Assembly: GCA_041670045.1 (NCBI GenBank)
Contig: JBAXZY010000001.1
Coordinates: 12,213 to 76,212, forward strand
Length of the DNA: 64,000 nt
Direction of reading: 5' to 3'
Source of the DNA: Bacilli bacterium
GTDB lineage: Bacteria; Bacillota_I; Bacilli_A; RFN20; CAG-288
Shown: piece after piece, positions 24,737 through 50,599 of the stretch
How positions within the stretch are numbered: the stretch's first letter is position 1
Layout: every line of letters starts with the position of its first letter
The notes under the pieces: model-generated
Database searches by the model: none
What the model saw: the letters and a program-made list of their open reading frames with translations, nothing else
What the model was told of the DNA's origin: nothing
Made by a program: the position numbers and the translations under genes

Positions 24737-26213
24737 ATGAAAAGAAAATCATTAATCATGATTCTTCTATCAATTCCTTTATGTTTAGCAAGCTGCGTGA
24801 CAAGTACAGGTACATCATCTGTTGACTCTGATACTGGTTCTTCATCATCACAAACAACTGATGCCGGTTCATCATCAACATCATCTCATTCCGGAGGACC
24901 ATGCGGTGGCACCTGAGGTGGTGGATCAGGGTCTGGTTCAGCTACTTATGGAGCTGCAACTGAGATTACCTCCACTGAAACTCAGACTGATAAGTCTTAT
25001 ACATCCTCTAATAGTGATGAAAGTGCCATTCTTTGTAAGACAGCTAATATCACTGGAACTATTCTGAATCCGACTGTCACTAAAACCGGTGACACCTCAT
25101 CAGCCGATAATTCCTCTTTCTATGGTCAGAATGCCTCAATCTTAGCTACTAACGGTACTTTAGACGTTAAAGGCGGAAGTATCAATTCTACTGCTAGCGG
25201 CGCACCTGGCTTATGCGGCTATAATGATGGTGTTGTCAATGTAGCTGATACAAGCGTTACTACCACTAAGAACTGATGCCTGCGGTGGAGGGACTGTCAA
25301 TGCCTGGAATATGACCGTATCAACAGCAGGGGAGCATTCCGCTCCCATCAGATCCAATCGCGGTGGCGGAACTATGCGAGTTGATGGTGGAGCCTATAAT
25401 TCTACCGGCGATGGTTCACCGGCTATCTATTCCACCGCTGATATTGCAGTTCATAATGCAACTTTAAATGCCTCAGGATCTGAAGCCGCTTCTATTGAAG
25501 GCAAGAACAGCATTCGATTGTTTGATTGTGACCTGACCGGCAATATGTCCGATTCCGAGCAGAATGATAACACTTGGGGTGTCATCCTCTATCAATCCAT
25601 GTCCGGTGATTCCACAGTCGGAACTTCCGAGTTTGCTATGGTTGGCGGAAAATTGAATATCAAAAACGGGGGATATTTCCATACCAACTCTACTTCATCG
25701 GAGTTTTTGCTTGATAATGTCACCTTGAGCCATGAAAACAATGATTCCTACGAATACTTGATCAGATGCTGTGGGAATAAAAGATGGAATTCCGGTGCCG
25801 GATCAACTTGCAACTTCACCTGTGTTGATCAGACTATGACTGGTAAAGTCATCTATGATTCAGCATCAACATTGAATCTTTATCTAACTGGTTCTACTGC
25901 TTGGACTGGTAACTCCAAAGTGGATTCTACCTATACCGGTTCAAAGACTTCTTCTATCTATATGGCTTCAGGATCCAAATGGATTGTCAATGGTGATTCC
26001 ACCATTGATAATCTCTATAATGCGGGCACCATTGTTGATAGCAATAATAAGACAGTCACTGTCATCGCTAATGGTACCACAAAAGTCAGTGGAACTTCTG
26101 ACTATACAATTACAGTCACTGGCTCTTACACCACTACCGCTGATCTATCAGATGCTTTAAGTGTACCTTCTTGGAGTGATTACGAGGTAACTAAGCCAGC
26201 TGATATTGCTTAG
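24737..26213 (+). pseudogene. Surface lipoprotein/adhesin-like gene (beta-helix-like NxT/GxS repeats) disrupted by in-frame TGA codons at 24914-24916 and 25274-25276 and a +1 frame change near 25272
   Basis: ATG 24737 encodes 'MKRKSLIMILLSIPLCLASC' (lipobox) then a Ser-rich linker. Frame 2 is open to 25276 apart from the TGA at 24914. The 300-aa ORF 25311..26213 continues the same repeat-rich sequence in frame 0 ('...TTTKN|DACGGGTVNAWNMTVSTAGEHS...'). Confidence 0.6.
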
Positions 26214-26307
26214 CCAATAGTCTTCTTCAAAAATGAATTAAACTGGCACTGCTTATATTGCAATGCCAGTTTTCTATTTTTTTCTATTATTTTTATAAAT
26301 AAGTCGA

Positions 26308-26337
26308 AAAAAGGGTGCTTTTTTACTATAATATTAG
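26308..26337 (+). promoter_or_regulatory. Putative sigma-A promoter for the REase gene (TCGAAA-17-TATAAT); the motif recurs at 24603-24632
   Basis: aagtcgaaaaaagggtgcttttttactataat has a -10 TATAAT, and the RBS AGAGGG precedes ATG 26362. Confidence 0.4.
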
Positions 26338-26361
26338 AAGCACATATCAAGAGGGAATTTA

Positions 26362-27132
26362 ATGATAAACAATCCAAACGGTGGTCCAAAAGACATCAAA
26401 GAGTTTATAGAAGAATACACAAAAATATGTGAACAGGGTTTTATAAAAAGCCATAGAAAAAGCGACACCGGAATTGGGAAAACCCTAGAAGACCTATTAG
26501 GAATAACCGAAAACGATATTCAGGGTCCTGATTTTGCTGATTATGAATTGAAAGCAAGAAGAATAAATAAGGACAATTCAATGGTTTCCTTGTTTACCAA
26601 AGCACCTGATGAAAAAGGCGCAAATAACAAATTAAGAAAAGAATATGGTTATAAAAGAAATCCTGATGACAAATACAACATTTTACATCTTACTTTGGAA
26701 ATGGGAACATCAGTTTGAGACAAAAAATTAGGATTGAAAATTGTAGATGACAAATTATTCATCACAAGTTTTGATAGTCCAATACCATATGCTTATTATC
26801 AAATTGACGGAATAATGAAAAGCTTAAATTCTAAATATGTAACTGGAAAAGCAGTTTTTGCAGAGGCTGAATCACGAGGTCCAAAAAGCAGCGAAGAATT
26901 TCATTATGAAGCAGCACAGTTAGCAACCGGATTGAACGTTAGCCATTTTTTAAGTATGTTAGAAGAAGGATTAATTAAAGTTGACTAGCGCCTAGGCGTC
27001 TACAAATCTGGTAAAAACATTGGAAATGTTCATGACCACGGAACCGGTTTTAGAATTTTTCCGAAAGATGAAATTAAGCTATTTGAAAATATTCAAAATA
27101 TCGTTGATTACACAAATGCAGATATTAAATAA
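26362..27132 (+). pseudogene. Type II restriction endonuclease, PD-(D/E)XK, MvaI/BcnI-like, inactivated by in-frame TGA (26716-26718) and TAG (26986-26988)
   Basis: Frame 1 is continuous from 26362 to TAA 27130-27132 apart from the two stops. The ORF track splits it into 118-aa and 84-aa pieces plus an unlisted ~47-aa tail. It carries 'TLEDLLG...GPDFADYELKARR', a PD...ExK core. 'LFTKAPD...YGYKRNP' and 'HDHGTGFRIFPKDEIKLF' resemble my recollection of BcnI (HDRGPHLRIP.SKLDKLY). Confidence 0.55.
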
Positions 27133-27186
27133 CTTGATTTCTAAATCAAACACTTGTATTCTATAGACAACATTTCGGAGGTAATT

Positions 27187-28800
27187 ATGATTCGCTCTGC
27201 TGTTGGCTATAGAATACAATCATTAATGCAGGAAAAAGGATATAACTATTCGACCTTGTCAAAGGATTCCGGCATATCAAGAGATCATTTATATCATCTT
27301 GTTGATGGTTCAAAAGAGATGGGAATAGATACAGCTGAAAAACTTGCTGAAACTTTTAAAGTTCCAGTAAAATCTTTATTTGATTTCTCATCTATGTCTA
27401 AAGAAAACAGGGAAGACAAATTAATAGTTGATGAATTTCGTTCTTTACCTAATAACTACTGGGATTTTGTAGATGCCAAAACAGATGAATTAATTCATGG
27501 CTTGCACAACTATCCAGCAGTTATGATTTGGCCAATTAGTAATTCGATAATTAGAATCGTTAGTAAATATCGCACGGTAAAATCTTTGCTTGATCCTTTT
27601 GTCAGATCTGGAACCGTAATTGTAGAAGGTCAAAGAGCAGGAATTAAAGAAGTTATTGGCAATGATTTAAATCCATTAGCTTTATTAATTTCAAAAGCTA
27701 AAACCACTTTGCTTTCTTCCGATGACTTTGCTTGCTGCAATACAATCAAAGATAGAATAAATGACATTGCCAATAAAAACGAAGCATTGATTAAATCATT
27801 TGTTGATTCAATAACGTCAAAATATTCTATTGTTGAAAAGGGAGATTGGGCTTCAAATGCCTCAACCATCACGAATAATTATTTTGATAAGTCTCCTTTG
27901 TCAAATTTTAAGATTAAAAATATTGATAATCTTGGTTTTTGGTTTAGACCAGAAAGTGTTATTGAAATTCAAATTATAAAGCAAGTGATCGACCAATTAA
28001 CTACCGAAAATTGCAAACCTTTCTTGTATTGTACCTTAAGTGAAACCATCCGCTTTGTTTCAAATACAAGAAACGGCGAATTCAAACTATATCGGAAACC
28101 AGTTAATAGAATATTAGAAAAAGAACACAAGCCTTTCATGTCTTTCTTATCTGCTCTCGAAAAGAACATAAAAAAAGAAGAAGAATATTTAAAAGCTGTT
28201 TCTAAAGATAGTCATGTTTCAACAATTTGTGAAAATGCTCAACACCTAGATTCAATTAAAGATGGAAGCATAGATATTGTCATTACCTCGCCTCCATATG
28301 GAGATAGTCACACAACTGTAGCCTATGGCCAATATTCCCGTCTTTCTAACATTTGGCTTGGTCTTACAGATGATAAAAATCTAGATTCAAAACTTTTGGG
28401 TGGCAAAAAAATCAAAGACCGTGATATAAAAGATCTTCAAAGTCCAACCTTAGAAAAGATTATCTCCCAGATATCAAACACTGATGCTAAAAGAGCAGCT
28501 GAGGTCTTAGACTTCTATTTTGAACTTGATGCCTCGTTACAAGAGATTTCCAATAAAGTTACAATTAATGGCTATGAATTCTGGGTTGTAGGAAATCGAA
28601 CAGTTAAACTCGTGAACATCCCAACCGATATAATCTTAAGTGAGTTAGGTATCAAATATAATTTGATTGTTTTAGACAAATATTACCGGATGATTTCAAA
28701 CAAAGTAATGCCTAATTTGAATTCTCCCTCAAATATTGCAGGTAATCATGCTCAAACTATGACAAGTGAAATTATTGTTTTCTTCAAGAAGACAATATAA
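27187..28800 (+). CDS. DNA amino-methyltransferase (N4-cytosine or N6-adenine) with an N-terminal XRE-type HTH. The ORF track starts at 27154; ATG 27187 follows GGAGG.
   Basis: The HTH is 'GYRIQSLMQEKGYNYSTLSKDSGISRDHLYHLVDG'. The SAM motif I-like 'LDPFVRSGTV...IGNDLNP' and the catalytic motif IV 'ITSPPYGDS' are present; SPPY favours N4mC, which is consistent with an MvaI/BcnI-type partner. Confidence 0.75.
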   Translation: MIRSAVGYRIQSLMQEKGYNYSTLSKDSGISRDHLYHLVDGSKEMGIDTAEKLAETFKVPVKSLFDFSSMSKENREDKLIVDEFRSLPNNYWDFVDAKTDELIHGLHNYPAVMIWPISNSIIRIVSKYRTVKSLLDPFVRSGTVIVEGQRAGIKEVIGNDLNPLALLISKAKTTLLSSDDFACCNTIKDRINDIANKNEALIKSFVDSITSKYSIVEKGDWASNASTITNNYFDKSPLSNFKIKNIDNLGFWFRPESVIEIQIIKQVIDQLTTENCKPFLYCTLSETIRFVSNTRNGEFKLYRKPVNRILEKEHKPFMSFLSALEKNIKKEEEYLKAVSKDSHVSTICENAQHLDSIKDGSIDIVITSPPYGDSHTTVAYGQYSRLSNIWLGLTDDKNLDSKLLGGKKIKDRDIKDLQSPTLEKIISQISNTDAKRAAEVLDFYFELDASLQEISNKVTINGYEFWVVGNRTVKLVNIPTDIILSELGIKYNLIVLDKYYRMISNKVMPNLNSPSNIAGNHAQTMTSEIIVFFKKTI

Positions 28801-28877
28801 TAACCGATTTGTTTTTAGGCATTTCTTTTAAATCAAAAAAAGAGGACCGGCAACTAGCTAGTCCTTTTTTTAATTGT

Positions 28878-29663: not shown

Positions 29664-32300
29664 CTACTTCTTAATCTTATTATACTTCTTATTATACTCA
29701 TTTTCGCCGTAATAAGCTTTAAGATACAGGGTTTTTACTTCTGAAATAAGCGGATAACGAGGGTTAGCACCAGTGCATTGATCGTTGAAGGCAGCTTCTG
29801 ACATCTCATCTAAGGTAGCTAAGAATTTATCTTCGGCAATACCGGCATCCTTAATAGTAGCAGGTAACTCGATTTCTCTCTGTAAACCATCAATCTTCTT
29901 AAGAAGTTTATTGAACTTCTCCTGATCGGTCTTGCCAGTAATGCCTAACATTTCAGCAATTTCACAATATCTTCTTAAAGTATGAGGATATTTATACTGA
30001 GGGAAAGTTCCCATCTTAGTCGGAACTTCACCAGCATTGAACTTCATGACTTCCTGTAAAAGTAAGGAAACACAGACACCATGAGGCAGATGATGATAAG
30101 CACCAAGCTTGTGTCCTAAAGAGTGATCAATGCCTAAGAAGGCATTAGCAAAAGCCATACCAGCCATCGTGGCAGCATGAGCCATATGCTCTCTAGCTTC
30201 CGGATCATTGCCTAAATTCTTATAGGCTCTAGGAAGCCAAGTGAAAATTTCCTGGATTGCTTCCTTAGCAATACCATCAGTAAAGACAGTAGCATAAGTA
30301 GAAGCATATGCTTCCATACTATGAGTTAGAGCATCAATACCAGAAGCTCTAGTAAGGCCTTTAGGAATATCTCTCATCAAATCAGAATCGATGATAGCCA
30401 TAGTCGGCATGAGTTCATAATCAGTAATAGGATACTTAGTACCATCTCTCTGATCAGTGATAATGGCAAAAGGAGTGACTTCAGAGCCAGTACCAGCAGT
30501 TGTCGGAACACAGACTAACATAGCCTTAGTTCCCATCTTAGGGAAGGTAACGATTCTCTTTCTGATATCCATGAAATCCATAGCCATATCTTGGAAATTT
30601 GCATCCGGATGTTCGTATAAGACCCACATAATCTTAGCGGCATCCATCGGAGAACCACCGCCTAAAGCGATGATGGCATCAGGCATATAGGAAGCACAAA
30701 GCTTGGCACCTTCTTCAGCACAGGCAAGAGTCGGATCAGGAGCAACATCAGAGAAGACTTCGGTCTGAATTCCTAAATTGTCTAAAACAGTCGTGATCTT
30801 CTTAGAGAAGCCACTCTGATAAAGGAATTTATCAGTAACGACTAAAACTCTCTTACGATCATAAACGGTCTTTAATTCTTCAAGAGCCTTGCTTAAGCAG
30901 CCATTCTTGAAGAAAACCTTACTCGGAGTTCTGAACCAAAGCATATTTTCTCTCCTTTTAGCAACTGTCTTGACATTAAGAAGCTGCTTGACAGTGACAT
31001 TCTCACTGACTGAGTTTCCGCCCCATGAACCGCATCCTAAAGTAAGACTAGGCTTGATTCTGAAATTATAGATATCTCCGATGCCACCTAAGGAAGAAGG
31101 AGTATTAATAAGGATACGGCAGGCCTTCATCTTAGAAGCAAACTCATTAATATGGTCTTTGCCTAAAGCCTCATCAGCATATAAATCAGCTGTATGACCA
31201 AAGCCACCGTCTCTGACAAGACGATCAGCCTTAGTTAAAGCATCCTCAAAGTCCTCAGCCTTATATAAAGCTAGAACTGGGCAAAGCTTTTCATGAGCGA
31301 ATTCTTCACTCTTATCAGTCTTAGTGACTTCACCGATTAAAATCTTAGTGGTTTCAGGAACTTCGAATCCAGCCATCTTAGCAATGACATAAGCCGGTTG
31401 ACCAACAACCTTAGCATTGCTAGAACCGTTGATAATGACAGTGTGTCTGACTTTGTTAAGTTCTTCAGCATTGAGGAAGTAGCAGCCACGGTAAATCATT
31501 TCAGCCTTGACAGCATCATAGACATCCTTAACAGCAATGACTGAGTTTTCACTAGCGCAAATCATACCATTATCGAAAGTCTTTGAATGGATGATAGAGC
31601 TGACAGCCATCTTAACATCAGCTGTCGTATCAATAATGCAAGGAGCGTTTCCCGGACCAACACCGATAGCCGGTTTGCCACTAGAATAAGCAGCTGTAAC
31701 CATACCCGGACCACCAGTAGCTAAGATGCAATCGCAGGTCTTCATTAACTGGTTGGAAGCTTCGATAGAAGGTTCCTGAATCCAGGCAATGATATCCTTA
31801 GGTGCACCAGCTTCAACAGCGGCATCAAGAACAATCTGAGCAGCATGGATAGTGCATTTCTTAGCACGCGGATGAGGGGAGAAAATGATTCCGTTACGAG
31901 TCTTTAAAGCCAATAAGGATTTAAAGATAGCAGTAGAAGTCGGGTTAGTGCAGGGAACAATACCGGCTAAGATTCCTAACGGTTCAGCAATGGTCTCATA
32001 ACCCATATCTTCATCATCTTCTAAAACACCGCAGGTCTTTACTGAACGATAAGTGTTATAGATGTATTCAGAGGCAAAGTGGTTTTTAATAACCTTGTCT
32101 TCTAATACTCCCATTCCGGTTTCAGCTACAGCTTCCTTAGCTAACGGAATACGGGCTTTGTTGGCAGCAATTGCGGCTGCCATAAAAATCTTGTCAACCT
32201 GTTCCTGAGAATAGGTCGAATAGACTTCTTCAGCTTTTCTTACACGTTCAATTAATTCGGTAAGATCTTCACTGGCTTTAACTTTCTGTTCTTCATCCAT
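29664..32300 (-). CDS. adhE: Bifunctional acetaldehyde-CoA/alcohol dehydrogenase
   Basis: 878 aa with an N-terminal ALDH domain and a C-terminal Fe-ADH domain (GGGSPMDAAK, HxxxH). It is followed by a long ~435-nt upstream leader. Confidence 0.95.
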   Translation of the reverse strand: MDEEQKVKASEDLTELIERVRKAEEVYSTYSQEQVDKIFMAAAIAANKARIPLAKEAVAETGMGVLEDKVIKNHFASEYIYNTYRSVKTCGVLEDDEDMGYETIAEPLGILAGIVPCTNPTSTAIFKSLLALKTRNGIIFSPHPRAKKCTIHAAQIVLDAAVEAGAPKDIIAWIQEPSIEASNQLMKTCDCILATGGPGMVTAAYSSGKPAIGVGPGNAPCIIDTTADVKMAVSSIIHSKTFDNGMICASENSVIAVKDVYDAVKAEMIYRGCYFLNAEELNKVRHTVIINGSSNAKVVGQPAYVIAKMAGFEVPETTKILIGEVTKTDKSEEFAHEKLCPVLALYKAEDFEDALTKADRLVRDGGFGHTADLYADEALGKDHINEFASKMKACRILINTPSSLGGIGDIYNFRIKPSLTLGCGSWGGNSVSENVTVKQLLNVKTVAKRRENMLWFRTPSKVFFKNGCLSKALEELKTVYDRKRVLVVTDKFLYQSGFSKKITTVLDNLGIQTEVFSDVAPDPTLACAEEGAKLCASYMPDAIIALGGGSPMDAAKIMWVLYEHPDANFQDMAMDFMDIRKRIVTFPKMGTKAMLVCVPTTAGTGSEVTPFAIITDQRDGTKYPITDYELMPTMAIIDSDLMRDIPKGLTRASGIDALTHSMEAYASTYATVFTDGIAKEAIQEIFTWLPRAYKNLGNDPEAREHMAHAATMAGMAFANAFLGIDHSLGHKLGAYHHLPHGVCVSLLLQEVMKFNAGEVPTKMGTFPQYKYPHTLRRYCEIAEMLGITGKTDQEKFNKLLKKIDGLQREIELPATIKDAGIAEDKFLATLDEMSEAAFNDQCTGANPRYPLISEVKTLYLKAYYGENEYNKKYNKIKK

Positions 32301-44595: not shown

Positions 44596-47500
44596 TTACT
44601 TATTTTCGGAATCAGAATCAGATGATGGGGTAACAGCTGAAGCATCTGCTGCCGTAGTATCAGCTTTAGCATCGGTTGGAGTAGCAGCCGTCTCAGTTGT
44701 GGCTTCTTCCGGTTTTGCCGCACTTAGAGGAAGAGTAGCCGTCTCTAGGTCCGGGACAGCTTCTTCACCGTTAGCTAAGGAAGCAACCGGATTACTGTCA
44801 GACTTCTTTTCTCTCTTCTTCTCTTCATAGACATCCAAGCCAGAACGCTTACGCTTCTCATCATGGATGGTGACTAAGATCAGGTCAACGTAAGAGACCA
44901 AGTCTCTCAGTTTCTCACTAGGAGTCGATAAGATAGCCTGTAAACCGAACTGTCTTAATAAGTCAGTCGATTTCATGATACGGGCACTATCCATCTTGGA
45001 GAAGGCTTCATCGAAGATGACTAAACGGAGGGTGTTGTTGTCTTTAGGGTTGTTGGCTCTCGTCAATGAGGCAAAGGAAGCTAAAATAGCGATATAGAAC
45101 GGAGTCTGAGTCTCACCGCCGGACTGACTCTTGAATGATCTTCCTAAGGAGATCGTCTGGGAGCCTTCTCCGGTGCCTCTTGTGACCAGTAAGTCAAAGA
45201 GAATATAAGTAGTATAGGAAGTAAAGGTCTCAACATTCTTCAGCAACTGCTCACGCTGCTCACCGGTAGCACTGGTAGAGGAAGAAATCAAAGCGAAGAG
45301 ATCATCCATCGTGGACTTGTACTTCTCCATGAAAAGATTCTCGGCATCGCCGGCTTTAAGAAGAAGCGGATCCATAATCATATTGTAGTATTCAAGATAA
45401 TCCTTGTTGGGTGAAACCTTGAACTGATAGGAATCACGGCCAAAGCGGTTATCGGCTAAGGCAACATTGAGATCATCAATCTGACTGTTGACCGTTTCAA
45501 TGGCGGTTCTCAGTTTATAGATGAAGTCATCCTTGAACTCTCTGATTGACTGTTCATGAGCGGTGACGATCTTGCTCTGATAATCAGGAAGCATGACCTT
45601 GGAGATATTCTCCAGCTCCTTATCAAACTCACTGTTGTCTTTATCGTTGGTGACATTGTAGTTAAGGGTATAGGTGGCACAGTAGTCGCTTCTCAGTTTC
45701 AACAGGTTATCCTTATCGCCGCGCTGTTTGTTCTGGGCCTGAATGTATTCACGGCTGGCTTCGACTCTGATCTGGCTTAAAGTCATATGCTGTTCATCGA
45801 AGAGCTTGTTATAGAAAGGATCATATTCCTTGTTGACGACTTCGCCGTCAAAGGCATCCAACTGAACTTTGAAGTCAGAAGCATTCTTCATAGCTAACGG
45901 GATTTCATTGCCATTAAGACGGTTAGTCTCATTCAATAAGGAACCACGTTCAGTAAGCAGATCCTCTCTCTCTTTGCTGATAGTAGCAATATCCGCATTG
46001 ATGGCCTCAATCTTCTTTTCGACTTCAGACATGTCTCCTAAAGTAGCATCATGCATCTCACTGTCGACATTAGTAAGATTCTGCTGAAGCATAGAGATAT
46101 CATGGCTACGATCAATGTCGCTCTGATAAGTGTTGCATTCCTCAACGGACATCACCGGCAGAGTCAATAAAGTCTGTAACTTATTGAGAGCTTCCGACAA
46201 TAAGGAGTAACGCTTGTTCATCTCCTGATAATCTTTAGCTGATAAAGCCTTAGTATCATTGGAGACCTTGGTTCCTAAGAAATAGACGGCGGCATTGGCT
46301 TTATTCAGATACCAAGTGGCAAAGCCACGGTAGCCGGTGCAATCGGAAAGCAAGCCGGAACCCGACTGTCTTGCCTCATCAAAGGTAGTGCACTTCTTGA
46401 TTCTTCCTAAAAGATAATCGGAATAGGCTCTAGCACCTTCATCATTGGTATCAATCAGGTTGGCGATAGAATCATCGTTAGGATCGATATTGGCACGCAA
46501 CAGTCTTTCCGTATCAACTAAGGAAACACGGTAATAATGGTAAGTATCGGTCATTTCCTTCAATAAACGGTTAGCTTCCTCATAATACTGAGGATTGACG
46601 AAGAAGTTGAATTTCTGGGCATAGAGGACAGCCTCTAAAGCCATAGTCCATTCGGGATCATTGACATCCACTAAGTCGCAGAAAATATGAACATAGGCAT
46701 CGGAGTGACGGCTCTTGAGACTGGTTTCCAGCGACTGACGGATAGCCTGATAGTTTGGTCCAAGTTTCTCAAAAGGTTTCTTGCCTTGGTTGACGGCGCT
46801 TAAATCCGACTGCAAAGACTGCAAAGAATCAGAGACTTCGTAGAACTCATTGTTGAGAAGGGAGCGTAAAGACAAAGTCTCGTTGCGAAGACTCTCCATG
46901 TCGTTTCTAAAGGCTTTGACATTGTCAAAATCCACCTGGTCATTATCAACTTCGGTCAATAACTCCTTGGATTCATCGGCAATATCCTTAGCTAATTCCA
47001 ATAATTCATCAAAGCTCTTCTGAATCTTGGTTCCTAATCTTTCGGAATTGAACTGGGAATAATAAAGAGAGAATTCCGAGCAGATCTTCTGATAATCGGA
47101 GCAGTAATTGACAAGCTTAGTCATGACTGACGATACGGACATCTGAATTGAAGTGATCTGTTTAGTGATGTTCTCTTTCTTCATCGACAGCTTTTCAGTC
47201 AAAGAATAGTTGCTCGACTGCAGTTTCTTAGCCTGATAGGAAGACAAGTCACTGCGAAGATCTTCCATCTGATGGTCAAACTGGGCCAGCTGATTGGAAA
47301 TGGCCATCAAACGGTCATTGTCCTTCTTCAGCTGATCATTCAAATTATCCAGTTTCTTCTTGTTTTCTTCATAATAGACACGGGCATTGATATAGGTCAG
47401 CATATCAAGCTTGCGGTCATAGGAACGATAAGACTCATACGTCTCATGAATCTTATTTAGAGTCTCGACTTTAGCCGTTAATCTCTTGGCTTCCAATTCC

Positions 47501-48231
47501 AGAATCTTGTACTGTTCGATATTCTTCTGCATCGGAGTGATATCGACATTGATGTCGGCATCACAGATATACTCAGTGATGAAAGAAGAAATATCGCTGA
47601 TCGGGGAGAAAGAGACGGCCTTCTTGAACAAAGAGAAATATTTATCGGAAAGGTTTCCGAAGGCTTCCTTGATGAAGCTCTGATATTCAATATCGGAATC
47701 AAAGAAACGGAAATGGTTGACTTTGTAGTTAGCTCTAGCCCAAGTAGAAAGCTCACGGTAACGTAACGGACGGACTTTCTTTGAATTAGTCTCGGTTTCA
47801 TTGTTGTTGAAGTCATTAGCCGGGAAAGCGGAATCAAGATAGAAATAATGCTTATCAATGGAATCGGAGGCATCGACATCGAAGACGACACCTAACGTGA
47901 AATAACGGTTTTCGGTGTCATCAAAAATTTCGATGGCAATATAAGAAGTGAAGCTGCCGTCACGTAAGTTCATGACGGAGCCATCGTCCTTAATACCAGT
48001 CTGTCCTCGTAAATAAGAGAGCAAAGTACGACCGGATCGGCCCTTTTCGTTAGCGGCCTTATTGAAGTTATCAGGTCTAGTGGTACCAAGAATCAGAATC
48101 TGAAGAGCATCAATGATAGTGGATTTACCAGTGCCGTTAGGACCAGTCAAGAAGGTGATGTTCTTAATATCAGTCGTAGTATTGGAAAAGTAATGCCAGT
48201 TGATTAAACGCAGTTTAGTTAGGTTTTTCAT
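44596..48231 (-). CDS. MukB/MksB/JetC-family SMC-like ATPase (condensin-like) with an acidic, low-complexity C-terminal tail
   Basis: 1211 aa. The N-terminus 'LRLINWHYF...ITFLTGPNGTGKSTIIDAL' parallels the MukB 'LTLINWNGF...LSGGNGAGKST' head. Long coiled-coil arms follow. The C-terminal head has the signature 'SQSGGETQ' and Walker B/D-loop 'LVIFDEAFSKMD'. It is translationally coupled to the upstream gene (TAATG). Confidence 0.8.
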   Translation of the reverse strand: MKNLTKLRLINWHYFSNTTTDIKNITFLTGPNGTGKSTIIDALQILILGTTRPDNFNKAANEKGRSGRTLLSYLRGQTGIKDDGSVMNLRDGSFTSYIAIEIFDDTENRYFTLGVVFDVDASDSIDKHYFYLDSAFPANDFNNNETETNSKKVRPLRYRELSTWARANYKVNHFRFFDSDIEYQSFIKEAFGNLSDKYFSLFKKAVSFSPISDISSFITEYICDADINVDITPMQKNIEQYKILELEAKRLTAKVETLNKIHETYESYRSYDRKLDMLTYINARVYYEENKKKLDNLNDQLKKDNDRLMAISNQLAQFDHQMEDLRSDLSSYQAKKLQSSNYSLTEKLSMKKENITKQITSIQMSVSSVMTKLVNYCSDYQKICSEFSLYYSQFNSERLGTKIQKSFDELLELAKDIADESKELLTEVDNDQVDFDNVKAFRNDMESLRNETLSLRSLLNNEFYEVSDSLQSLQSDLSAVNQGKKPFEKLGPNYQAIRQSLETSLKSRHSDAYVHIFCDLVDVNDPEWTMALEAVLYAQKFNFFVNPQYYEEANRLLKEMTDTYHYYRVSLVDTERLLRANIDPNDDSIANLIDTNDEGARAYSDYLLGRIKKCTTFDEARQSGSGLLSDCTGYRGFATWYLNKANAAVYFLGTKVSNDTKALSAKDYQEMNKRYSLLSEALNKLQTLLTLPVMSVEECNTYQSDIDRSHDISMLQQNLTNVDSEMHDATLGDMSEVEKKIEAINADIATISKEREDLLTERGSLLNETNRLNGNEIPLAMKNASDFKVQLDAFDGEVVNKEYDPFYNKLFDEQHMTLSQIRVEASREYIQAQNKQRGDKDNLLKLRSDYCATYTLNYNVTNDKDNSEFDKELENISKVMLPDYQSKIVTAHEQSIREFKDDFIYKLRTAIETVNSQIDDLNVALADNRFGRDSYQFKVSPNKDYLEYYNMIMDPLLLKAGDAENLFMEKYKSTMDDLFALISSSTSATGEQREQLLKNVETFTSYTTYILFDLLVTRGTGEGSQTISLGRSFKSQSGGETQTPFYIAILASFASLTRANNPKDNNTLRLVIFDEAFSKMDSARIMKSTDLLRQFGLQAILSTPSEKLRDLVSYVDLILVTIHDEKRKRSGLDVYEEKKREKKSDSNPVASLANGEEAVPDLETATLPLSAAKPEEATTETAATPTDAKADTTAADASAVTPSSDSDSENK

Positions 48232-49106
48232 TAATTATTGTCTCCTTCATCCTTCTTTTCAGTTGAAGAAGAATCCTCAGAAACTGAGGTGTCAGTATCA
48301 TCTTTGACAGGAATGTCAGGGTTAAGGGGCTCGGTTTCGGTTTTAGCTTCATCCTTGACTGGAATATCAGTGTCTGGATTGCCGGAAGGAGTTGAAAGCA
48401 AGGCCTTAGCTAAGGTCTGAGAGGCATTCGGGTCAAGATTGTCGGAAGTATCGGCATTATTAGCTAAATTTGCTTTATCAAATAAGGAAGGTTCTTCTTC
48501 AGTTTCCGGTCCCTTAGTCAAAAAGTCGTATAAAGTATTCATCTTTTCGGAAGAAATGACATATTTGATAGTTGGCAGAATAAAGAAAGAATAGCTAGGA
48601 TCACCATATGTGCCGTTAGCTCTGGAGACGACATTATAGGAATCCAACTGACGCAAAGAAGAAGCAATCGTGCTAGCCGATAAACGTTTTGATAAATTGG
48701 ATAGACCCATTTCCTGAACTAAGGAATTCAAGGCGCCGCTAGTCATCATGACTTCAGTCTCCTGAGGTGTCTTGCTGATGGCTCCTTCATAAAAGGAACG
48801 AAGAGCGTAAACAATAAGGGTAGTGACACTATCCAGACGTAAATGGTTTCTTTCAGCTCCGGAAGAGACAAAAACAACTCCATCATCGTCATTTTTCGTC
48901 ATCTGCATATCCATATAAGAAAGATAGTCCTCGAAGGTCGAGTAATGTCTTTCAATAAAAAGATAATCCGGATCGGCACGGAACATGCCACTCTTTTTAT
49001 CAAAGGTCTTTCTAACAATGAAGCACTGGTAGAGCAAATCATTTACTGTTTCGGAGAACAGAGCACGATCACTGCGACTCATTTTATTGTAATCATCAAT
49101 AAACAT
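48231..49106 (-). CDS. Putative MukE/MksE/JetB-like (KITE) subunit with an acidic C-terminal extension
   Basis: 291 aa. The assignment rests on the middle position in a kleisin-KITE-SMC gene order and on size. No sequence motif was verified. Confidence 0.45.
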   Translation of the reverse strand: MFIDDYNKMSRSDRALFSETVNDLLYQCFIVRKTFDKKSGMFRADPDYLFIERHYSTFEDYLSYMDMQMTKNDDDGVVFVSSGAERNHLRLDSVTTLIVYALRSFYEGAISKTPQETEVMMTSGALNSLVQEMGLSNLSKRLSASTIASSLRQLDSYNVVSRANGTYGDPSYSFFILPTIKYVISSEKMNTLYDFLTKGPETEEEPSLFDKANLANNADTSDNLDPNASQTLAKALLSTPSGNPDTDIPVKDEAKTETEPLNPDIPVKDDTDTSVSEDSSSTEKKDEGDNN

Positions 49107-49111
49107 ACTTT

Positions 49112-50599
49112 TTACCTCACACTCTTATTTCGACGGGTGAATTTATAAAGTGGCATATAGTAGCCGTCATAATCAATTCGATCTTCCAGTTTCGTAGCAA
49201 CATAAGGGATGATTCCTAAGTTAGCCTTCAGGATTCCTAAGATCATCAAGACTAACTGATCGGTGCTGTAGATGTTGACATCATAAGTGGTGATCTCATC
49301 CTTGCCTTGCATGTTTTCTTCAATGAATTCGGTGATGGCTCTATCAGAGAAACGGTTTAGTTCATTATCGAAGACCTGATTCATCAATTCGGTCTGTTCA
49401 TCAAAAGGAATTTCATCTTCCAAAGGCAACGGTTCACCTTCTTCGATTTCCCCTCTTCTGAAGGGCATCGTCAAAGAGGAACTGTCCACATAGCCTTGAC
49501 GGTAGAAGGAAATAGAGTCGCTGGCTTTCTCTAAAAGTGGCATTTCTTCGTACTTTAATGCCGGATTGTTCTTGATTTCATTAGCTAAGGCCAGAATAAT
49601 GCGGTCAATCTTGCCTTTGACGGTCTTATCGTTGCTAGAAAGGTAATTGACCTTTCTTTGAACGGCTTCAGTATAGTTGGCGTTAGCAGAATCGATTTCA
49701 TTGAAGGATGAAGTCAGACGACTGAAGATATCAATGACTTCCTGAATGGTTTTAATGACATTCTTGGCAATGGTGGCTTCTTCAACGGTTCTATTAAGTG
49801 GCTCAGTTTTAGCTTCTCTGACTAATAATGTAATGATTCTTTCGGATTTAAGCCAATTCGAAAGCAGTTTGATAGTCGGCTGAGAATATAAGCCTAAGGA
49901 ATCAAATGTCTTCATCGGATGATAGTATTTATCGGAAATATCGACTCGGTATTCATCAAAATGCTGTTTCAAAGCCTGGTTAGGATCTAAAACCGAAGTC
50001 AGACGATTGCCAAAGACACAGATCTGCTGTCTTAATAAGACAACCGACATCTCAATTGAATCCGCATTCTGACGGGCATTAAGAAGAGAACGATACATAT
50101 AGTCATCTTCTTTCTCGTCTTCCATCTTCAGTTCGGCATAAGTCTGATGGACTAATGGCAGATAGGATCCAATATCACTAGTCAGATCATCCATTATTTT
50201 CAATAGCTGAATGGAATAAGCGGGAATATAAACGTATTCCACGTTGTTCTTTGGATTCTTAGAAATAATGAACCAGCCACAGCGAGAGAGCTTGCGGATG
50301 ATGTAATTGACTTTCTGACTTAATAAAGCCTCAGTATTGTCTAAAGGTATAGTGCTTTCGGCATCGATTTTTTCGATATCGTCATGGTCATCAAGACGGT
50401 CTGTTTCCACATTAAACAAAGACAGGATTTCTTCACCCTGACTCTTTAAAAGATTGGAATAATCGGTCTTTTTTATATCTGTTTTATATAATCGAAGAAG
50501 ATGATAAAGAGAAATCAGTGCGAAGGCATAGATTGATTTATATTTTCGAGATAAAGGGGCAAAAAGGTCTTCTGGAATTTTTTCAAATAAACGAGTCAA
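49112..50599 (-). CDS. Putative MukF/MksF/JetA-like (kleisin) subunit
   Basis: 495 aa and the first gene of the three-gene operon. The assignment is by order and size only. Confidence 0.45.
   Translation of the reverse strand: MTRLFEKIPEDLFAPLSRKYKSIYAFALISLYHLLRLYKTDIKKTDYSNLLKSQGEEILSLFNVETDRLDDHDDIEKIDAESTIPLDNTEALLSQKVNYIIRKLSRCGWFIISKNPKNNVEYVYIPAYSIQLLKIMDDLTSDIGSYLPLVHQTYAELKMEDEKEDDYMYRSLLNARQNADSIEMSVVLLRQQICVFGNRLTSVLDPNQALKQHFDEYRVDISDKYYHPMKTFDSLGLYSQPTIKLLSNWLKSERIITLLVREAKTEPLNRTVEEATIAKNVIKTIQEVIDIFSRLTSSFNEIDSANANYTEAVQRKVNYLSSNDKTVKGKIDRIILALANEIKNNPALKYEEMPLLEKASDSISFYRQGYVDSSSLTMPFRRGEIEEGEPLPLEDEIPFDEQTELMNQVFDNELNRFSDRAITEFIEENMQGKDEITTYDVNIYSTDQLVLMILGILKANLGIIPYVATKLEDRIDYDGYYMPLYKFTRRNKSVR

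What the first reader, a model, noticed from the sequence alone, without database searches (positions are those of the whole stretch)
26308..28800. Decayed R-M locus: MvaI/BcnI-like restriction endonuclease gene with two in-frame nonsense codons beside an intact HTH-fused methyltransferase
A single reading frame from 26362 to 27132 encodes a PD-(D/E)XK nuclease ('GPDFADYELKARR' core, with further blocks that I recall as matching BcnI/MvaI). It is interrupted by TGA at 26716-26718 and TAG at 26986-26988 with no frameshift. The adjacent methyltransferase has an intact 'SPPY' catalytic motif and an FxGxG-like SAM motif, and carries an N-terminal XRE HTH typical of autoregulated MTases. A dead R gene beside a live M gene is the classic signature of post-segregational decay. 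The MTase may now act as an orphan or epigenetic regulator. Two independent nonsense mutations without indels also makes sequencing error unlikely.
Basis: partly seen in the sequence, partly recalled or inferred. Interest (0 to 1): 0.6.

Follow-up and report, generated by a model that had tools for sequence, protein, structure and literature searches.

The report
Decayed MvaI-type restriction-modification cassette
This is a small, horizontally acquired restriction-modification gene pair in an uncultured Bacilli genome whose DNA-cutting gene is dead, and whose apparently intact methylase gene carries a change at an invariant cofactor-binding glycine, so the whole system is probably an ordinary relic.

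Summary
Frame 26362-27132 (+) is a full-length MvaI/BcnI-family endonuclease (Pfam E=2e-45; R.MvaI E=2e-30) broken only by TGA (26716-8) and TAG (26986-8). Each is one base away from the residue that relatives carry (GGA Gly, TTG Leu). Near-identical contigs from other metagenomes carry the sense codons, so these are real, ordered mutations and not sequencing errors.

The 537-codon methylase ORF (27187-28800) is uninterrupted and has SPPY, but its SAM motif reads DPFVRSGT. Arg140 replaces a glycine present in 119 of 119 homologues and in two sister haplotypes, and experiments on other methylases show this glycine is needed for AdoMet binding. The methylase is therefore probably inactive too. 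A sister lineage lost the R 3' end, the M promoter and the HTH in one 446-bp deletion.

The N-terminal HTH resembles controller proteins (C.BclI, C.AhdI). An 18-bp palindrome, TGTAnTCTATAGAnTACA, overlaps the M promoter in every locus recovered at ≤2 mismatches that holds the 5' end of an HTH-fused M gene, and in none of 83 other loci. This supports autoregulation.

Verdict: a recently decayed type II R-M cassette, a new member of a known kind, of low to moderate interest.

The parts
26304..26332 (+). Promoter-like site upstream of R (TCGAAA, 17 nt, TATAAT)
   Evidence: Consensus scan, 10 of 12 matches. This is a prediction only and was not compared across loci.
26362..27132 (+). R pseudogene: MvaI/BcnI-family type IIP restriction endonuclease, 256 codons plus TAA, with two in-frame stops
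   Evidence: The equivalents of MvaI catalytic residues Glu36/Asp50/Glu55/Lys57 are E43, D57, E62 and K64, all present. The recognition residues D208, R210 and H224-D225-H226 are also present.
26716..26718 (+). Nonsense codon 1: TGA at codon 119, derived from GGA (Gly)
   Evidence: L001 has GGA. The closest intact homologues P0002-P0005 have Gly, or Lys in one. TGA is shared by the window, L002, L003, L004 and L106.
26986..26988 (+). Nonsense codon 2: TAG at codon 209, derived from TTG (Leu). It lies between recognition residues D208 and R210
   Evidence: L003 and L004 have TTG. Homologues have Leu (110) or Ile (9) of 119. TAG occurs only in the window and L002.
26973..27418 (+). Segment deleted (446 bp) in the sister haplotypes L001 and L106. 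It is bounded by imperfect direct repeats AATTAA(A/T)AGTTGA at 26973-26985 and 27419-27432, and it removes R codons 205-256, the M promoter/operator and M codons 1-77
27134..27162 (+). Inferred M promoter: -35 TTGATT (27134-27139), 17-nt spacer, -10 TATTCT (27157-27162)
   Evidence: The same TTGAnn, 17 nt, TAnTCT arrangement is seen in 7 of 10 homologous loci, read by eye. This pairing was not picked up by the consensus scan. It is an inference.
27155..27172 (+). Operator O1: 18-bp quasi-palindrome TGTATTCTATAGACAACA (family consensus TGTAnTCTATAGAnTACA), which overlaps the -10 element
   Evidence: Twelve of 18 positions are invariant across 9 loci whose M proteins are 48-85% identical, while the flanking non-coding DNA is not conserved. 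At ≤2 mismatches the palindrome is present just upstream of M in all 22 matching loci and in none of 83 other loci.
27177..27181 (+). Shine-Dalgarno GGAGG of M
   Evidence: Read from the sequence and conserved in most homologous loci.
27187..28800 (+). M gene: C-protein-like HTH fused to a type II SPPY (N4-cytosine-type) DNA methyltransferase. The ORF is an intact 537 codons
   Evidence: PADLOC MTase_II, E=1.4e-110. The AlphaFold model has pLDDT 88.4. NCBI names the protein 'helix-turn-helix transcriptional regulator', MFA6860789.1.
27201..27218 (-). Second operator-like copy O2 (TGTATTCTATAGCCAACA on the minus strand, 1 mismatch), inside M codons 5-11. Together with O1 it forms a 19-nt inverted repeat that brackets the SD and the ATG
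   Evidence: As RNA the region folds at -27.3 kcal/mol, z=-6.15. O2 is present only in the closest clade, and its changes are not compensated in O1.
27211..27387 (+). HTH domain (aa 9-67)
   Evidence: Pfam HTH_26, E=3.9e-7. The best PDB sequence hit is C.BclI 2b5a, E=2e-6, followed by C.AhdI. The model superposes on C.AhdI (TM 0.91, rmsd 0.7 Å) and C.BclI (TM 0.82).
27592..27615 (+). Motif I (AdoMet binding) DPFVRSGT. Codon 140 is AGA (27604-27606), giving Arg in place of the invariant Gly
   Evidence: Gly in 119 of 119 homologues. L001 and L106 have GGA. For the role of this glycine see PMC5173035.
28288..28299 (+). Motif IV SPPY (catalytic)
   Evidence: Invariant block TSPPYGDS in the 120-sequence alignment.

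Best explanation
Window 26214-28877 is a roughly 2.7-kb, low-GC (32% against 39% for the window) mobile type II R-M cassette inserted in the chromosome of an uncultured Bacilli bacterium. Its gene order is R (MvaI/BcnI family) followed by an HTH::M fusion.

How the intact ancestral cassette would have worked:
- This is inferred from intact relatives that share the architecture.
- M is transcribed from its own promoter in the 54-bp R-M gap.
- M N4-methylates cytosines in a CCWGG-like site.
- Its C-protein-like N-terminal HTH binds an 18-bp TATA-centred palindrome that overlaps the -10 element, which shuts off M's own promoter as the protein accumulates.
- The monomeric R enzyme cuts unmethylated sites.

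In this genome the system is a recent relic:
- R is killed by GGA>TGA at codon 119. In the window/L002 sub-lineage it later also acquired TTG>TAG at codon 209. Both changes are shown.
- The M ORF is uninterrupted but carries GGA>AGA (Gly140Arg) at the first glycine of AdoMet-binding motif I. I infer that this abolishes or severely reduces methylation, which became tolerable only once R was dead.
- A sister lineage of the same species disabled M differently, through a 446-bp repeat-mediated deletion of the R 3' end, the M promoter and the HTH, together with A379S.

Shown: family membership, the stops, their ancestral states, the haplotype distribution, the motif-I substitution, and the conservation of the operator together with its exclusive association with HTH-fused M genes. 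Inferred: loss of M activity, binding of the HTH to the palindrome, the promoter assignment, and CCWGG specificity.
For: R family and pseudogene status.

Ancestral codons and population haplotypes. The tree from flanking SNPs is ((window,L002),(L003,L004)). TAG occurs only in the first pair, and TGA plus R140 occur in all four.

Standard genetic code: TAA, TAG and TGA end 20, 13 and 8 of the 41 long ORFs.

M motif I: Gly in 119 of 119 homologues, and it is one of only two positions at which the window M departs from a residue shared by at least 90% of homologues (the other is the conservative Glu446 for Asp). Experimental precedent for this glycine is in PMC5173035.

Conserved architecture: an intact R of 244-266 aa directly upstream of an HTH-M in every relative examined, often next to serine recombinases or MobL.

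Operator.

C-protein likeness. The C-box architecture (outer TG/CA, GAC/GTC, central TATA) is described in PMC3488213.

MvaI-like recognition residues: Arg210 corresponds to MvaI Arg209, which contacts the central T, whereas BcnI has Cys at that position.

SNP density between the window and L001 is higher in the cassette (10 in 2208 bp) than in the flanks (9 in 5402 bp), binomial p=0.026.
Against: - M activity was not measured, and a Gly-to-Arg change could leave residual activity.
- The M ORF, the HTH and motif IV are otherwise unblemished, and four haplotypes carry an identical M. That is compatible with continued use as well as with very recent decay.
- The order of events is not fully resolved. 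L106 combines TGA119 with the deletion, whereas L001 combines GGA119 with the deletion, so the four-gamete test fails. L001 comes from a 2.3x-coverage contig.
- No CCWGG or CCSGG avoidance was detected in 64 kb (O/E 0.99 and 0.73), so specificity is unsupported by composition.
- The promoter was assigned by eye.
- The O1/O2 inverted repeat could also act as an RNA hairpin.
Confidence: 0.7

Rival explanations
1. One reading: R is dead but M is still an active, now solitary N4-cytosine methyltransferase, retained as an orphan or epigenetic regulator. On this view Arg140 is tolerated.
For: The ORF is an uninterrupted 537 codons with an intact HTH, SPPY and all other invariant positions. M is identical in four haplotypes. 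Promoter, operator and SD are intact.
Against: Arg replaces a Gly that is invariant in 119 of 119 homologues and is needed for AdoMet binding in tested methyltransferases. Sister haplotypes L001 and L106 have lost the M promoter, the HTH and 77 codons, so M is dispensable in this species. The divergence is too small for an intact ORF to indicate selection.
Confidence: 0.2
2. The conserved inverted repeat (27154-27172 and 27201-27219) acts mainly as an mRNA hairpin that sequesters the SD and start codon of M in read-through transcripts from the R promoter, rather than as protein operators.
For: 19-nt arms that are 95% complementary and bracket the SD and ATG. Fold energy -27.3 kcal/mol, z=-6.15, with 0 of 200 shuffles as stable. 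A similar hairpin is predicted in L005 and L008.
Against: The right arm is missing in more distant loci (L096, L097, L099), while the left palindrome is retained. Changes in the right arm in L008 and L005 are not compensated in the left arm. The left element is itself a dyad-symmetric, TATA-centred site of the kind bound by C proteins, and it occurs only with HTH-fused M genes.
Confidence: 0.12
3. The stops are artefacts or are decoded: sequencing or assembly error, a non-standard genetic code (UGA read as Trp or Gly), selenocysteine or pyrrolysine, or read-through giving a full-length active R.
For: TGA sits at a Gly position, and UGA encodes Gly in code 25. One pipeline called a 214-aa product across the TGA in L106.
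Against: - The same TGA appears in five assemblies from different samples, and the same TAG in two.
- TGA and TAG terminate 8 and 13 of the 41 long ORFs in the window, and no other long ORF needs recoding.
- There is only one TGA in R and none in M.
- The sister haplotypes have plain GGA and TTG at these positions.
- The ancestral residues are Gly and Leu, not Sec, Pyl or Trp.
Confidence: 0.02

Closest known systems
MvaI restriction-modification system (R.MvaI, PDB 2OA9/2OAA; CC^WGG; M.MvaI N4-methylates the inner cytosines)
   Same: Same Pfam family (PF15515), with an alignment over almost the full length (E=2.3e-30). The catalytic residues Glu/Asp/Glu/Lys are conserved, as are the Asp-x-Arg and His-Asp-His recognition elements. 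These include the Arg that contacts the central T in MvaI. The partner methylase has the SPPY motif typical of N4-cytosine enzymes.
   Different: - The similarity to MvaI is distant.
- R here is a pseudogene.
- M carries an extra N-terminal C-protein-like HTH and a Gly-to-Arg change in motif I.
- Specificity is untested.
- Direct similarity of this M to M.MvaI could not be tested, because no M.MvaI sequence was available to the tools.
BcnI (R.BcnI, PDB 2ODH; CC^SGG)
   Same: Same family and the same monomeric two-lobe architecture by homology.
   Different: A much weaker match (E=1.1e-10). BcnI has Cys where MvaI and all 119 relatives of this R have Arg, so BcnI-type specificity is less likely.
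Controller (C) proteins of R-M systems and their C-box operators (C.BclI 2B5A, C.AhdI 1Y7Y, C.Esp1396I)
   Same: The HTH domain's best sequence and structure matches are C.BclI and C.AhdI. The operator is a dyad-symmetric site with a central TATA, flanking GTC/GAC-type triplets and outer TGT/ACA. It overlaps a promoter of the R-M system, like O_M of Esp1396I (PMC3488213).
   Different: The HTH is covalently fused to the methyltransferase rather than being a separate small protein encoded upstream of R. The triplets are arranged (G/T)TC-TATA-GA(C) rather than GAC-TATA-GTC. No operator was found at the R promoter. The second site lies 46 bp away inside the coding region rather than adjacent.
Methyltransferases with a regulatory N-terminal DNA-binding domain (M.SsoII, M.Ecl18kI)
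   Same: An N-terminal region of about 70 aa on the methyltransferase binds an operator and controls transcription of the R-M genes (PMC3978073, PMC2760811).
   Different: Those enzymes are C5-cytosine methyltransferases with divergently arranged genes and an unrelated R family. Here M is an SPPY-type enzyme downstream of a co-oriented R.
Degenerate R-M systems and solitary methyltransferases left after loss of R
   Same: R is inactivated by point mutations while the M ORF persists. This is the expected order, because losing M while R is active is lethal (general knowledge of post-segregational killing by type II R-M systems).
   Different: Here M itself also carries a probable loss-of-function substitution, and it is deleted at its 5' end in sister strains. 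It does not look like a maintained orphan methylase.

Membership tests
MvaI/BcnI restriction endonuclease family (PF15515) | Significant full-length match to the family profile and to solved members | tested here: met
   155.9 bits against a cut-off of 25, profile positions 2-222 of 227. R.MvaI E=2.3e-30 and R.BcnI E=1.1e-10.
MvaI/BcnI restriction endonuclease family (PF15515) | PD-(D/E)XK catalytic residues (MvaI Glu36, Asp50, Glu55, Lys57) | tested here: met
   E43, D57, E62 and K64 are present and invariant in the 120-sequence alignment. The residue list is from PMC1874612.
MvaI/BcnI restriction endonuclease family (PF15515) | Major-groove recognition elements (MvaI Asp207/Arg209 and His223-Asp224-His225) | tested here: met
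   D208, R210 and H224-D225-H226 are encoded and invariant. They lie downstream of the first stop, so they are not translated.
MvaI/BcnI restriction endonuclease family (PF15515) | Uninterrupted ORF able to give an active enzyme | tested here: not met
   TGA at codon 119 and TAG at codon 209. The 118-aa product lacks catalytic-lobe strands and most of the recognition lobe (lobe boundaries from PMC1874612).
MvaI/BcnI restriction endonuclease family (PF15515) | Cleavage at CC^WGG or CC^SGG | not testable with these tools
   There is only indirect evidence: the Arg210 equivalent of MvaI Arg209. No site avoidance was seen.
Type II exocyclic-amino (N4-cytosine type) DNA methyltransferase | Catalytic motif IV SPPY | tested here: met
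   ITSPPYGDS at aa 366-374, invariant in 120 sequences. The link between SPPY and N4-cytosine enzymes comes from general knowledge. One homologue is named 'cytosine-N4-specific' by JGI.
Type II exocyclic-amino (N4-cytosine type) DNA methyltransferase | AdoMet-binding motif I FxGxG | tested here: not met
   The motif reads F138-V-R140-S-G142. Position 140 is Gly in 119 of 119 homologues and in L001 and L106.
Type II exocyclic-amino (N4-cytosine type) DNA methyltransferase | Overall similarity to type II methyltransferase families and a class I SAM-methyltransferase fold | tested here: met
   PADLOC MTase_II, E=1.4e-110. Pfam PF01170 scores 25.7 bits against a cut-off of 22.3. The AlphaFold model (pLDDT 88.4) has weak Foldseek matches to an N4-cytosine methyltransferase (8s9m) and to TTHA0409.
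Type II exocyclic-amino (N4-cytosine type) DNA methyltransferase | Demonstrated methyl transfer and target base | not testable with these tools
   This needs methylome data or an enzyme assay.
R-M controller (C) protein / C-box regulation | XRE-type HTH similar to known C proteins | tested here: met
   HTH_26, E=3.9e-7. C.BclI E=2e-6 and C.AhdI E=1.7e-3 by sequence. TM 0.82-0.91 and rmsd 0.7-0.8 Å by structure.
R-M controller (C) protein / C-box regulation | Dyad-symmetric operator with a central TATA at a promoter of the R-M system | tested here: met
   TGTAnTCTATAGAnTACA occurs upstream of M in all 22 loci that match at ≤2 mismatches, and in 0 of 83 other loci.
R-M controller (C) protein / C-box regulation | Separate small C gene, usually upstream of and co-transcribed with R | tested here: not met
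   The HTH is the N-terminus of the 537-aa M protein, and no separate C ORF exists between 26214 and 28877.
R-M controller (C) protein / C-box regulation | Protein-operator binding and a transcriptional effect | not testable with these tools
   This needs EMSA, footprinting or reporter assays.
Solitary (orphan) DNA methyltransferase retained for regulation | Catalytically competent M maintained across the lineage without a functional R | tested here: not met
   Motif I Gly140Arg. M is truncated at its 5' end in L001 and L106 and frameshifted in L001.

The most novel reading that the evidence does not exclude
The R > HTH::M cassettes found here (R of 244-266 aa; M of about 533-556 aa, including caller-extended N-termini) form an uncharacterised sub-family of MvaI-like systems. 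In them a C-type controller is fused to an SPPY methyltransferase and reads a conserved 18-bp TATA-centred palindrome. In this Bacilli lineage the methylation-dead but otherwise intact fusion would persist as a DNA-binding protein, either as a domesticated repressor or as a decoy that interferes with incoming related cassettes that carry the same operator. An intact related cassette does occur in the same sample (L007 in ERZ27249489).
Probability: 0.1. Interest if true: 0.45.

Novelty: new member of a known kind. Interest (0 to 1): 0.25.

Why it matters
The main value is for annotation and as a cautionary example:
- An 'intact' methylase ORF beside a dead endonuclease should not be assumed to be an active orphan methylase. 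Here a single substitution at an invariant cofactor-binding glycine, visible only against a deep alignment, probably silences it.
- NCBI labels the protein merely as an HTH regulator.
- The metagenome haplotypes give an unusually clean, time-ordered picture of how a type II R-M cassette decays within one species. R suffers a nonsense mutation, then M takes a missense change in one lineage and a promoter/HTH deletion in the other, and then R acquires a second nonsense mutation.
- The conserved operator, together with the controller-methylase fusion, gives a testable regulatory module for a family of mobile MvaI-like systems.

None of this changes current understanding of R-M biology.

Tried and rejected
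- **Alternative genetic code, Sec/Pyl or read-through.** Rejected from stop-codon usage in the 41 long ORFs and from the sense alleles in sister haplotypes.
- **Sequencing error.** Rejected, because the same stops occur in independent assemblies that differ elsewhere.
- **Perfect palindrome TTGATTTCTAAATCAA (27134-27149) as an operator.** I first suspected this, but it is not conserved in L005 or L008. The conserved element is the 18-mer at 27155-27172.
- **Site-avoidance test for specificity.** Uninformative: CCWGG 58 observed against 58.3 expected, CCSGG 27 against 36.8, with neither site inside the cassette.
- **Genome-contig scan with the M alignment.** It returned only relatives at ≤44% identity, mostly without an HTH, and neither this species nor a close cassette. 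The two HTH-bearing hits (L032, L037, 37% identity) lack the palindrome at ≤2 mismatches.
- **Metagenome-contig scan with the HTH alignment.** It gave only 3 loci.
- **Search for an 'empty site'.** Every contig carrying the identical neighbouring APH-like kinase also carries M, so I found no cassette-free strain.
- **Rfam.** No RNA family in the window.
- **Foldseek against the PDB.** No full-length structural relative of M, only domain-level matches.
- **NCBIfam.** No model for R, and only sub-threshold hits for M.
- **Covariation support for the RNA hairpin.** None seen.
- **Selection tests on M.** Not attempted, because there are too few substitutions.
Full report
**1. The observation**

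Reading window 26362-27135 on the + strand gives a single frame of 256 codons ending at TAA (27130-27132). It is interrupted only by TGA at 26716-26718 (codon 119) and TAG at 26986-26988 (codon 209), with no frameshift.

With the stops masked, the product matches Pfam PF15515 (MvaI_BcnI) over profile positions 2-222 of 227, at 155.9 bits against a gathering score of 25. It also matches the solved enzymes R.MvaI (2oa9, E=2.3e-30) and R.BcnI (2odh, E=1.1e-10). A search of 5.8 billion proteins found 2135 relatives. The nearest intact ones (P0002-P0005, 54-67% identity) are 253-257 aa long.

MvaI's catalytic residues are Glu36, Asp50, Glu55 and Lys57 (PMC1874612). They correspond to E43, D57, E62 and K64 here, all present and invariant in a 120-sequence alignment.

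**2. The stops are real mutations, and they are ordered**

The nearest relatives have Gly at codon 119 and Leu or Ile at codon 209 (Leu 110, Ile 9 of 119). Each stop is therefore one substitution away from the ancestral codon: GGA>TGA and TTG>TAG.

Exact-protein look-ups recovered near-identical (99.4-99.96%) contigs of the same species from other metagenomes.

| Contig | Sample | R codon 119 | R codon 209 | Other features |
|---|---|---|---|---|
| window | – | TGA | TAG | M Arg140 |
| L002 | ERZ27249489 | TGA | TAG | differs from the window at 6 other positions in 13.6 kb, so it is an independent sequence; M Arg140 |
| L003 | JGI 3300014206 | TGA | TTG (Leu) | M Arg140 |
| L004 | ERZ27247361 | TGA | TTG (Leu) | M Arg140 |
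| L001 | ERZ724032 | GGA (Gly) | deleted | 446-bp deletion (26973-27418); M Gly140 |
| L106 | SRR15237818 | TGA | deleted | same 446-bp deletion; M Gly140 |

Flanking SNPs give the tree ((window,L002),(L003,L004)). TAG209 is thus a later, second hit in a gene already truncated at codon 119.

The window uses the standard code: TAA, TAG and TGA terminate 20, 13 and 8 of its 41 long ORFs. That excludes sequencing error, recoding and non-standard codes.

**3. The methylase is not as intact as it looks**

The ORF 27187-28800 (537 aa) has an HTH_26/HTH_3 domain at aa 9-67 and the block ITSPPYGDS at aa 366-374. It scores E=1.4e-110 against a PADLOC type II methyltransferase model.

Its motif I, however, reads DPFVRSGT. 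In an alignment with the 119 best homologues (39-82% identity) the consensus is DPFxGSGT. Position 140 is Gly in 119 of 119 sequences, and it is one of only two positions at which this protein departs from a residue shared by at least 90% of homologues; the other is the conservative Glu446 for Asp.

The codon is AGA (27604-27606). The sister haplotypes L001 and L106 have GGA, so the change is a recent G>A transition, found only in the group of haplotypes that also carries R-TGA119 without the deletion.

The first glycine of FxGxG is experimentally required for AdoMet binding. G197A abolishes binding in M1.HpyAVI, and the authors cite the same result for M.EcoKI and M.EcoP15I (PMC5173035). I therefore consider M probably inactive (about 0.75-0.8).

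**4. Decay in the sister lineage**

L001 and L106 share a 446-bp deletion (window 26973-27418) between imperfect direct repeats AATTAA(A/T)AGTTGA. It removes R codons 205-256, the R-M intergenic promoter/operator and M codons 1-77, which include the whole HTH.

Both also carry A379S at an Ala that is invariant in 119 of 119 homologues. In addition, L001 has T79I in R (Thr invariant in 119 of 119), V139G, and a 10-bp frameshifting deletion in M (28564-28573).

M has therefore been disabled by different lesions in the two lineages, which argues that it is dispensable in this species.

SNP density between the window and L001 is 10 in 2208 bp in the cassette and 9 in 5402 bp in the flanks (binomial p=0.026). 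This is modest evidence of relaxed constraint.

One inconsistency remains. TGA119 occurs with the deletion in L106, but GGA119 occurs with the deletion in L001, so the four-gamete test fails. There are two possibilities:
- Recombination occurred between 26716 and 26973.
- TGA119 preceded everything, and L001's GGA is a back-mutation or an error. L001 is a 2.3x-coverage contig, but I estimate the chance that one of its five private SNPs restores exactly this base at about 8e-4.

Under the second scenario the order is simple: R dies first, then M decays twice independently.

**5. The HTH and its operator**

A profile of M and its relatives hits C.BclI best in the PDB (2b5a, E=2e-6) and also hits C.AhdI. 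The AlphaFold model (pLDDT 88.4, pTM 0.85) superposes its N-terminal domain on C.AhdI (TM 0.91, rmsd 0.7 Å) and C.BclI (TM 0.82). The HTH is thus a controller-protein-like module fused to M.

Every HTH-fused M homologue I examined (48-85% identity) sits 8-55 bp downstream of an intact, co-oriented MvaI/BcnI-family R of 244-266 aa. These cassettes often lie next to serine recombinases or a MobL relaxase, so the unit is mobile. It is also low in GC here, at 32% against 39% for the window.

In the otherwise unconserved R-M spacer of all these loci lies an 18-bp dyad, TGTAnTCTATAGAnTACA. Twelve of its 18 positions are invariant across 9 loci. In the window it is at 27155-27172. At ≤2 mismatches it occurs just upstream of M in all 22 matching loci, each of which holds the 5' end of an HTH-M gene. 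It occurs in none of the other 83 loci, which include about 80 HTH-less M homologues.

It overlaps a conserved TTGAnn, 17 nt, TAnTCT promoter-like arrangement, read by eye in 7 of 10 loci. Its layout (outer TGT/ACA, inner triplets, central TATA) parallels the C-box sites described for C.Esp1396I (PMC3488213), although the triplets are (G/T)TC...GA(C) rather than GAC...GTC. The most economical reading is autorepression of P_M by the HTH. Methyltransferases with regulatory N-terminal domains are known in the SsoII and Ecl18kI systems (PMC3978073, PMC2760811).

In the window's own clade a second copy lies inverted at 27201-27218 (1 mismatch), inside M codons 5-11. Together the two copies could form an RNA hairpin that hides the SD and the AUG (-27.3 kcal/mol, z=-6.15). 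The second arm is absent from more distant loci, and its changes are not compensated in the first arm. I therefore rank the RNA model lower.

**6. Specificity**

MvaI reads the central T through Arg209. It reads the C:G pairs through Asp207 and His223-Asp224-His225, and M.MvaI N4-methylates the inner cytosines (PMC1874612).

The corresponding D208, R210 and H224-D225-H226 are encoded here and are invariant in relatives. BcnI has Cys at the Arg position. This favours a CCWGG-type site but does not prove it.

The window shows no avoidance of CCWGG (58 observed, 58.3 expected). CCSGG is only mildly depleted (27 against 36.8).

**7. Host and annotation**

Identical proteins are deposited as 'MAG: Bacilli bacterium'. 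NCBI names M (MFA6860789.1) only as 'helix-turn-helix transcriptional regulator'. No cassette-free strain was found.

**8. Verdict**

R is a true MvaI/BcnI-family pseudogene, and M is an HTH-fused, probably autoregulated methylase. M most likely also lost activity through Gly140Arg and is not being maintained as an orphan methylase.
- Decayed type II R-M systems and methyltransferase-borne regulatory domains are both well known, so this is a new member of a known kind.
- Its modest interest lies in three things: the clean population record of stepwise decay, the warning that an intact ORF does not mean an active enzyme, and a well-defined operator for a controller-methylase fusion family.

Noticed in passing
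window 44596-50599 (- strand): Three consecutive genes match Wadjet components strongly: JetA (49112-50599, E=2.9e-84), JetB (48231-49106, E=1.9e-63) and JetC (44596-48231, 1211 aa, E=4e-293). No JetD was found. The next genes downstream are glycogen-synthesis genes (two NTP_transferase/hexapeptide proteins and a starch-synthase-type glycosyltransferase), and the four neighbouring ORFs upstream gave no PADLOC hit. This is a JetD-less Wadjet or an MksBEF-like condensin.
   Followed up: partly
window 27187-28800; NCBI MFA6860789.1: The public annotation of the 537-aa HTH::methyltransferase is only 'helix-turn-helix transcriptional regulator'. Pfam and NCBIfam barely detect the methyltransferase part, with PF01170 just above its cut-off.
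   Followed up: partly
L007 (ERZ27249489 k141_285087), with L005 and L006: An intact related cassette (R 67% and M 77% identical, with the same operator) occurs in the same sample as the decayed copy L002. It sits in a different genomic context, between an RNase_T-like or unknown gene and a TetR-type regulator.
   Followed up: no
L008 2793-6348; L096 1-1340; L097 3446-4945; L099 3160-4385: Intact R>HTH::M cassettes lie next to a MobL relaxase or large serine recombinases, which suggests carriage on plasmids or integrative elements.
   Followed up: partly
window about 30909-30945 (adhE, - strand), compared with L001: Haplotype L001 has an in-frame deletion of about 39 bp in the bifunctional acetaldehyde-CoA/alcohol dehydrogenase gene (865 aa against 878 aa).
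   Followed up: no
L106 615-1259: The public gene call for the R remnant in L106 (214 aa) runs straight through the in-frame TGA, so that pipeline evidently applied a TGA-sense code to this short contig. This is a possible source of spurious 'intact' proteins in the protein collection.
   Followed up: no
window 24737-26213 (+ strand): Upstream of the cassette are a 59-aa lipoprotein-like ORF with a Ser/Thr-rich tail and a 300-aa Ser/Thr/Gly-rich protein with no Pfam or PADLOC match. The start of the latter is called differently in different assemblies (279 or 300 aa). It is followed by a strong hairpin terminator at 26240-26272.
   Followed up: no
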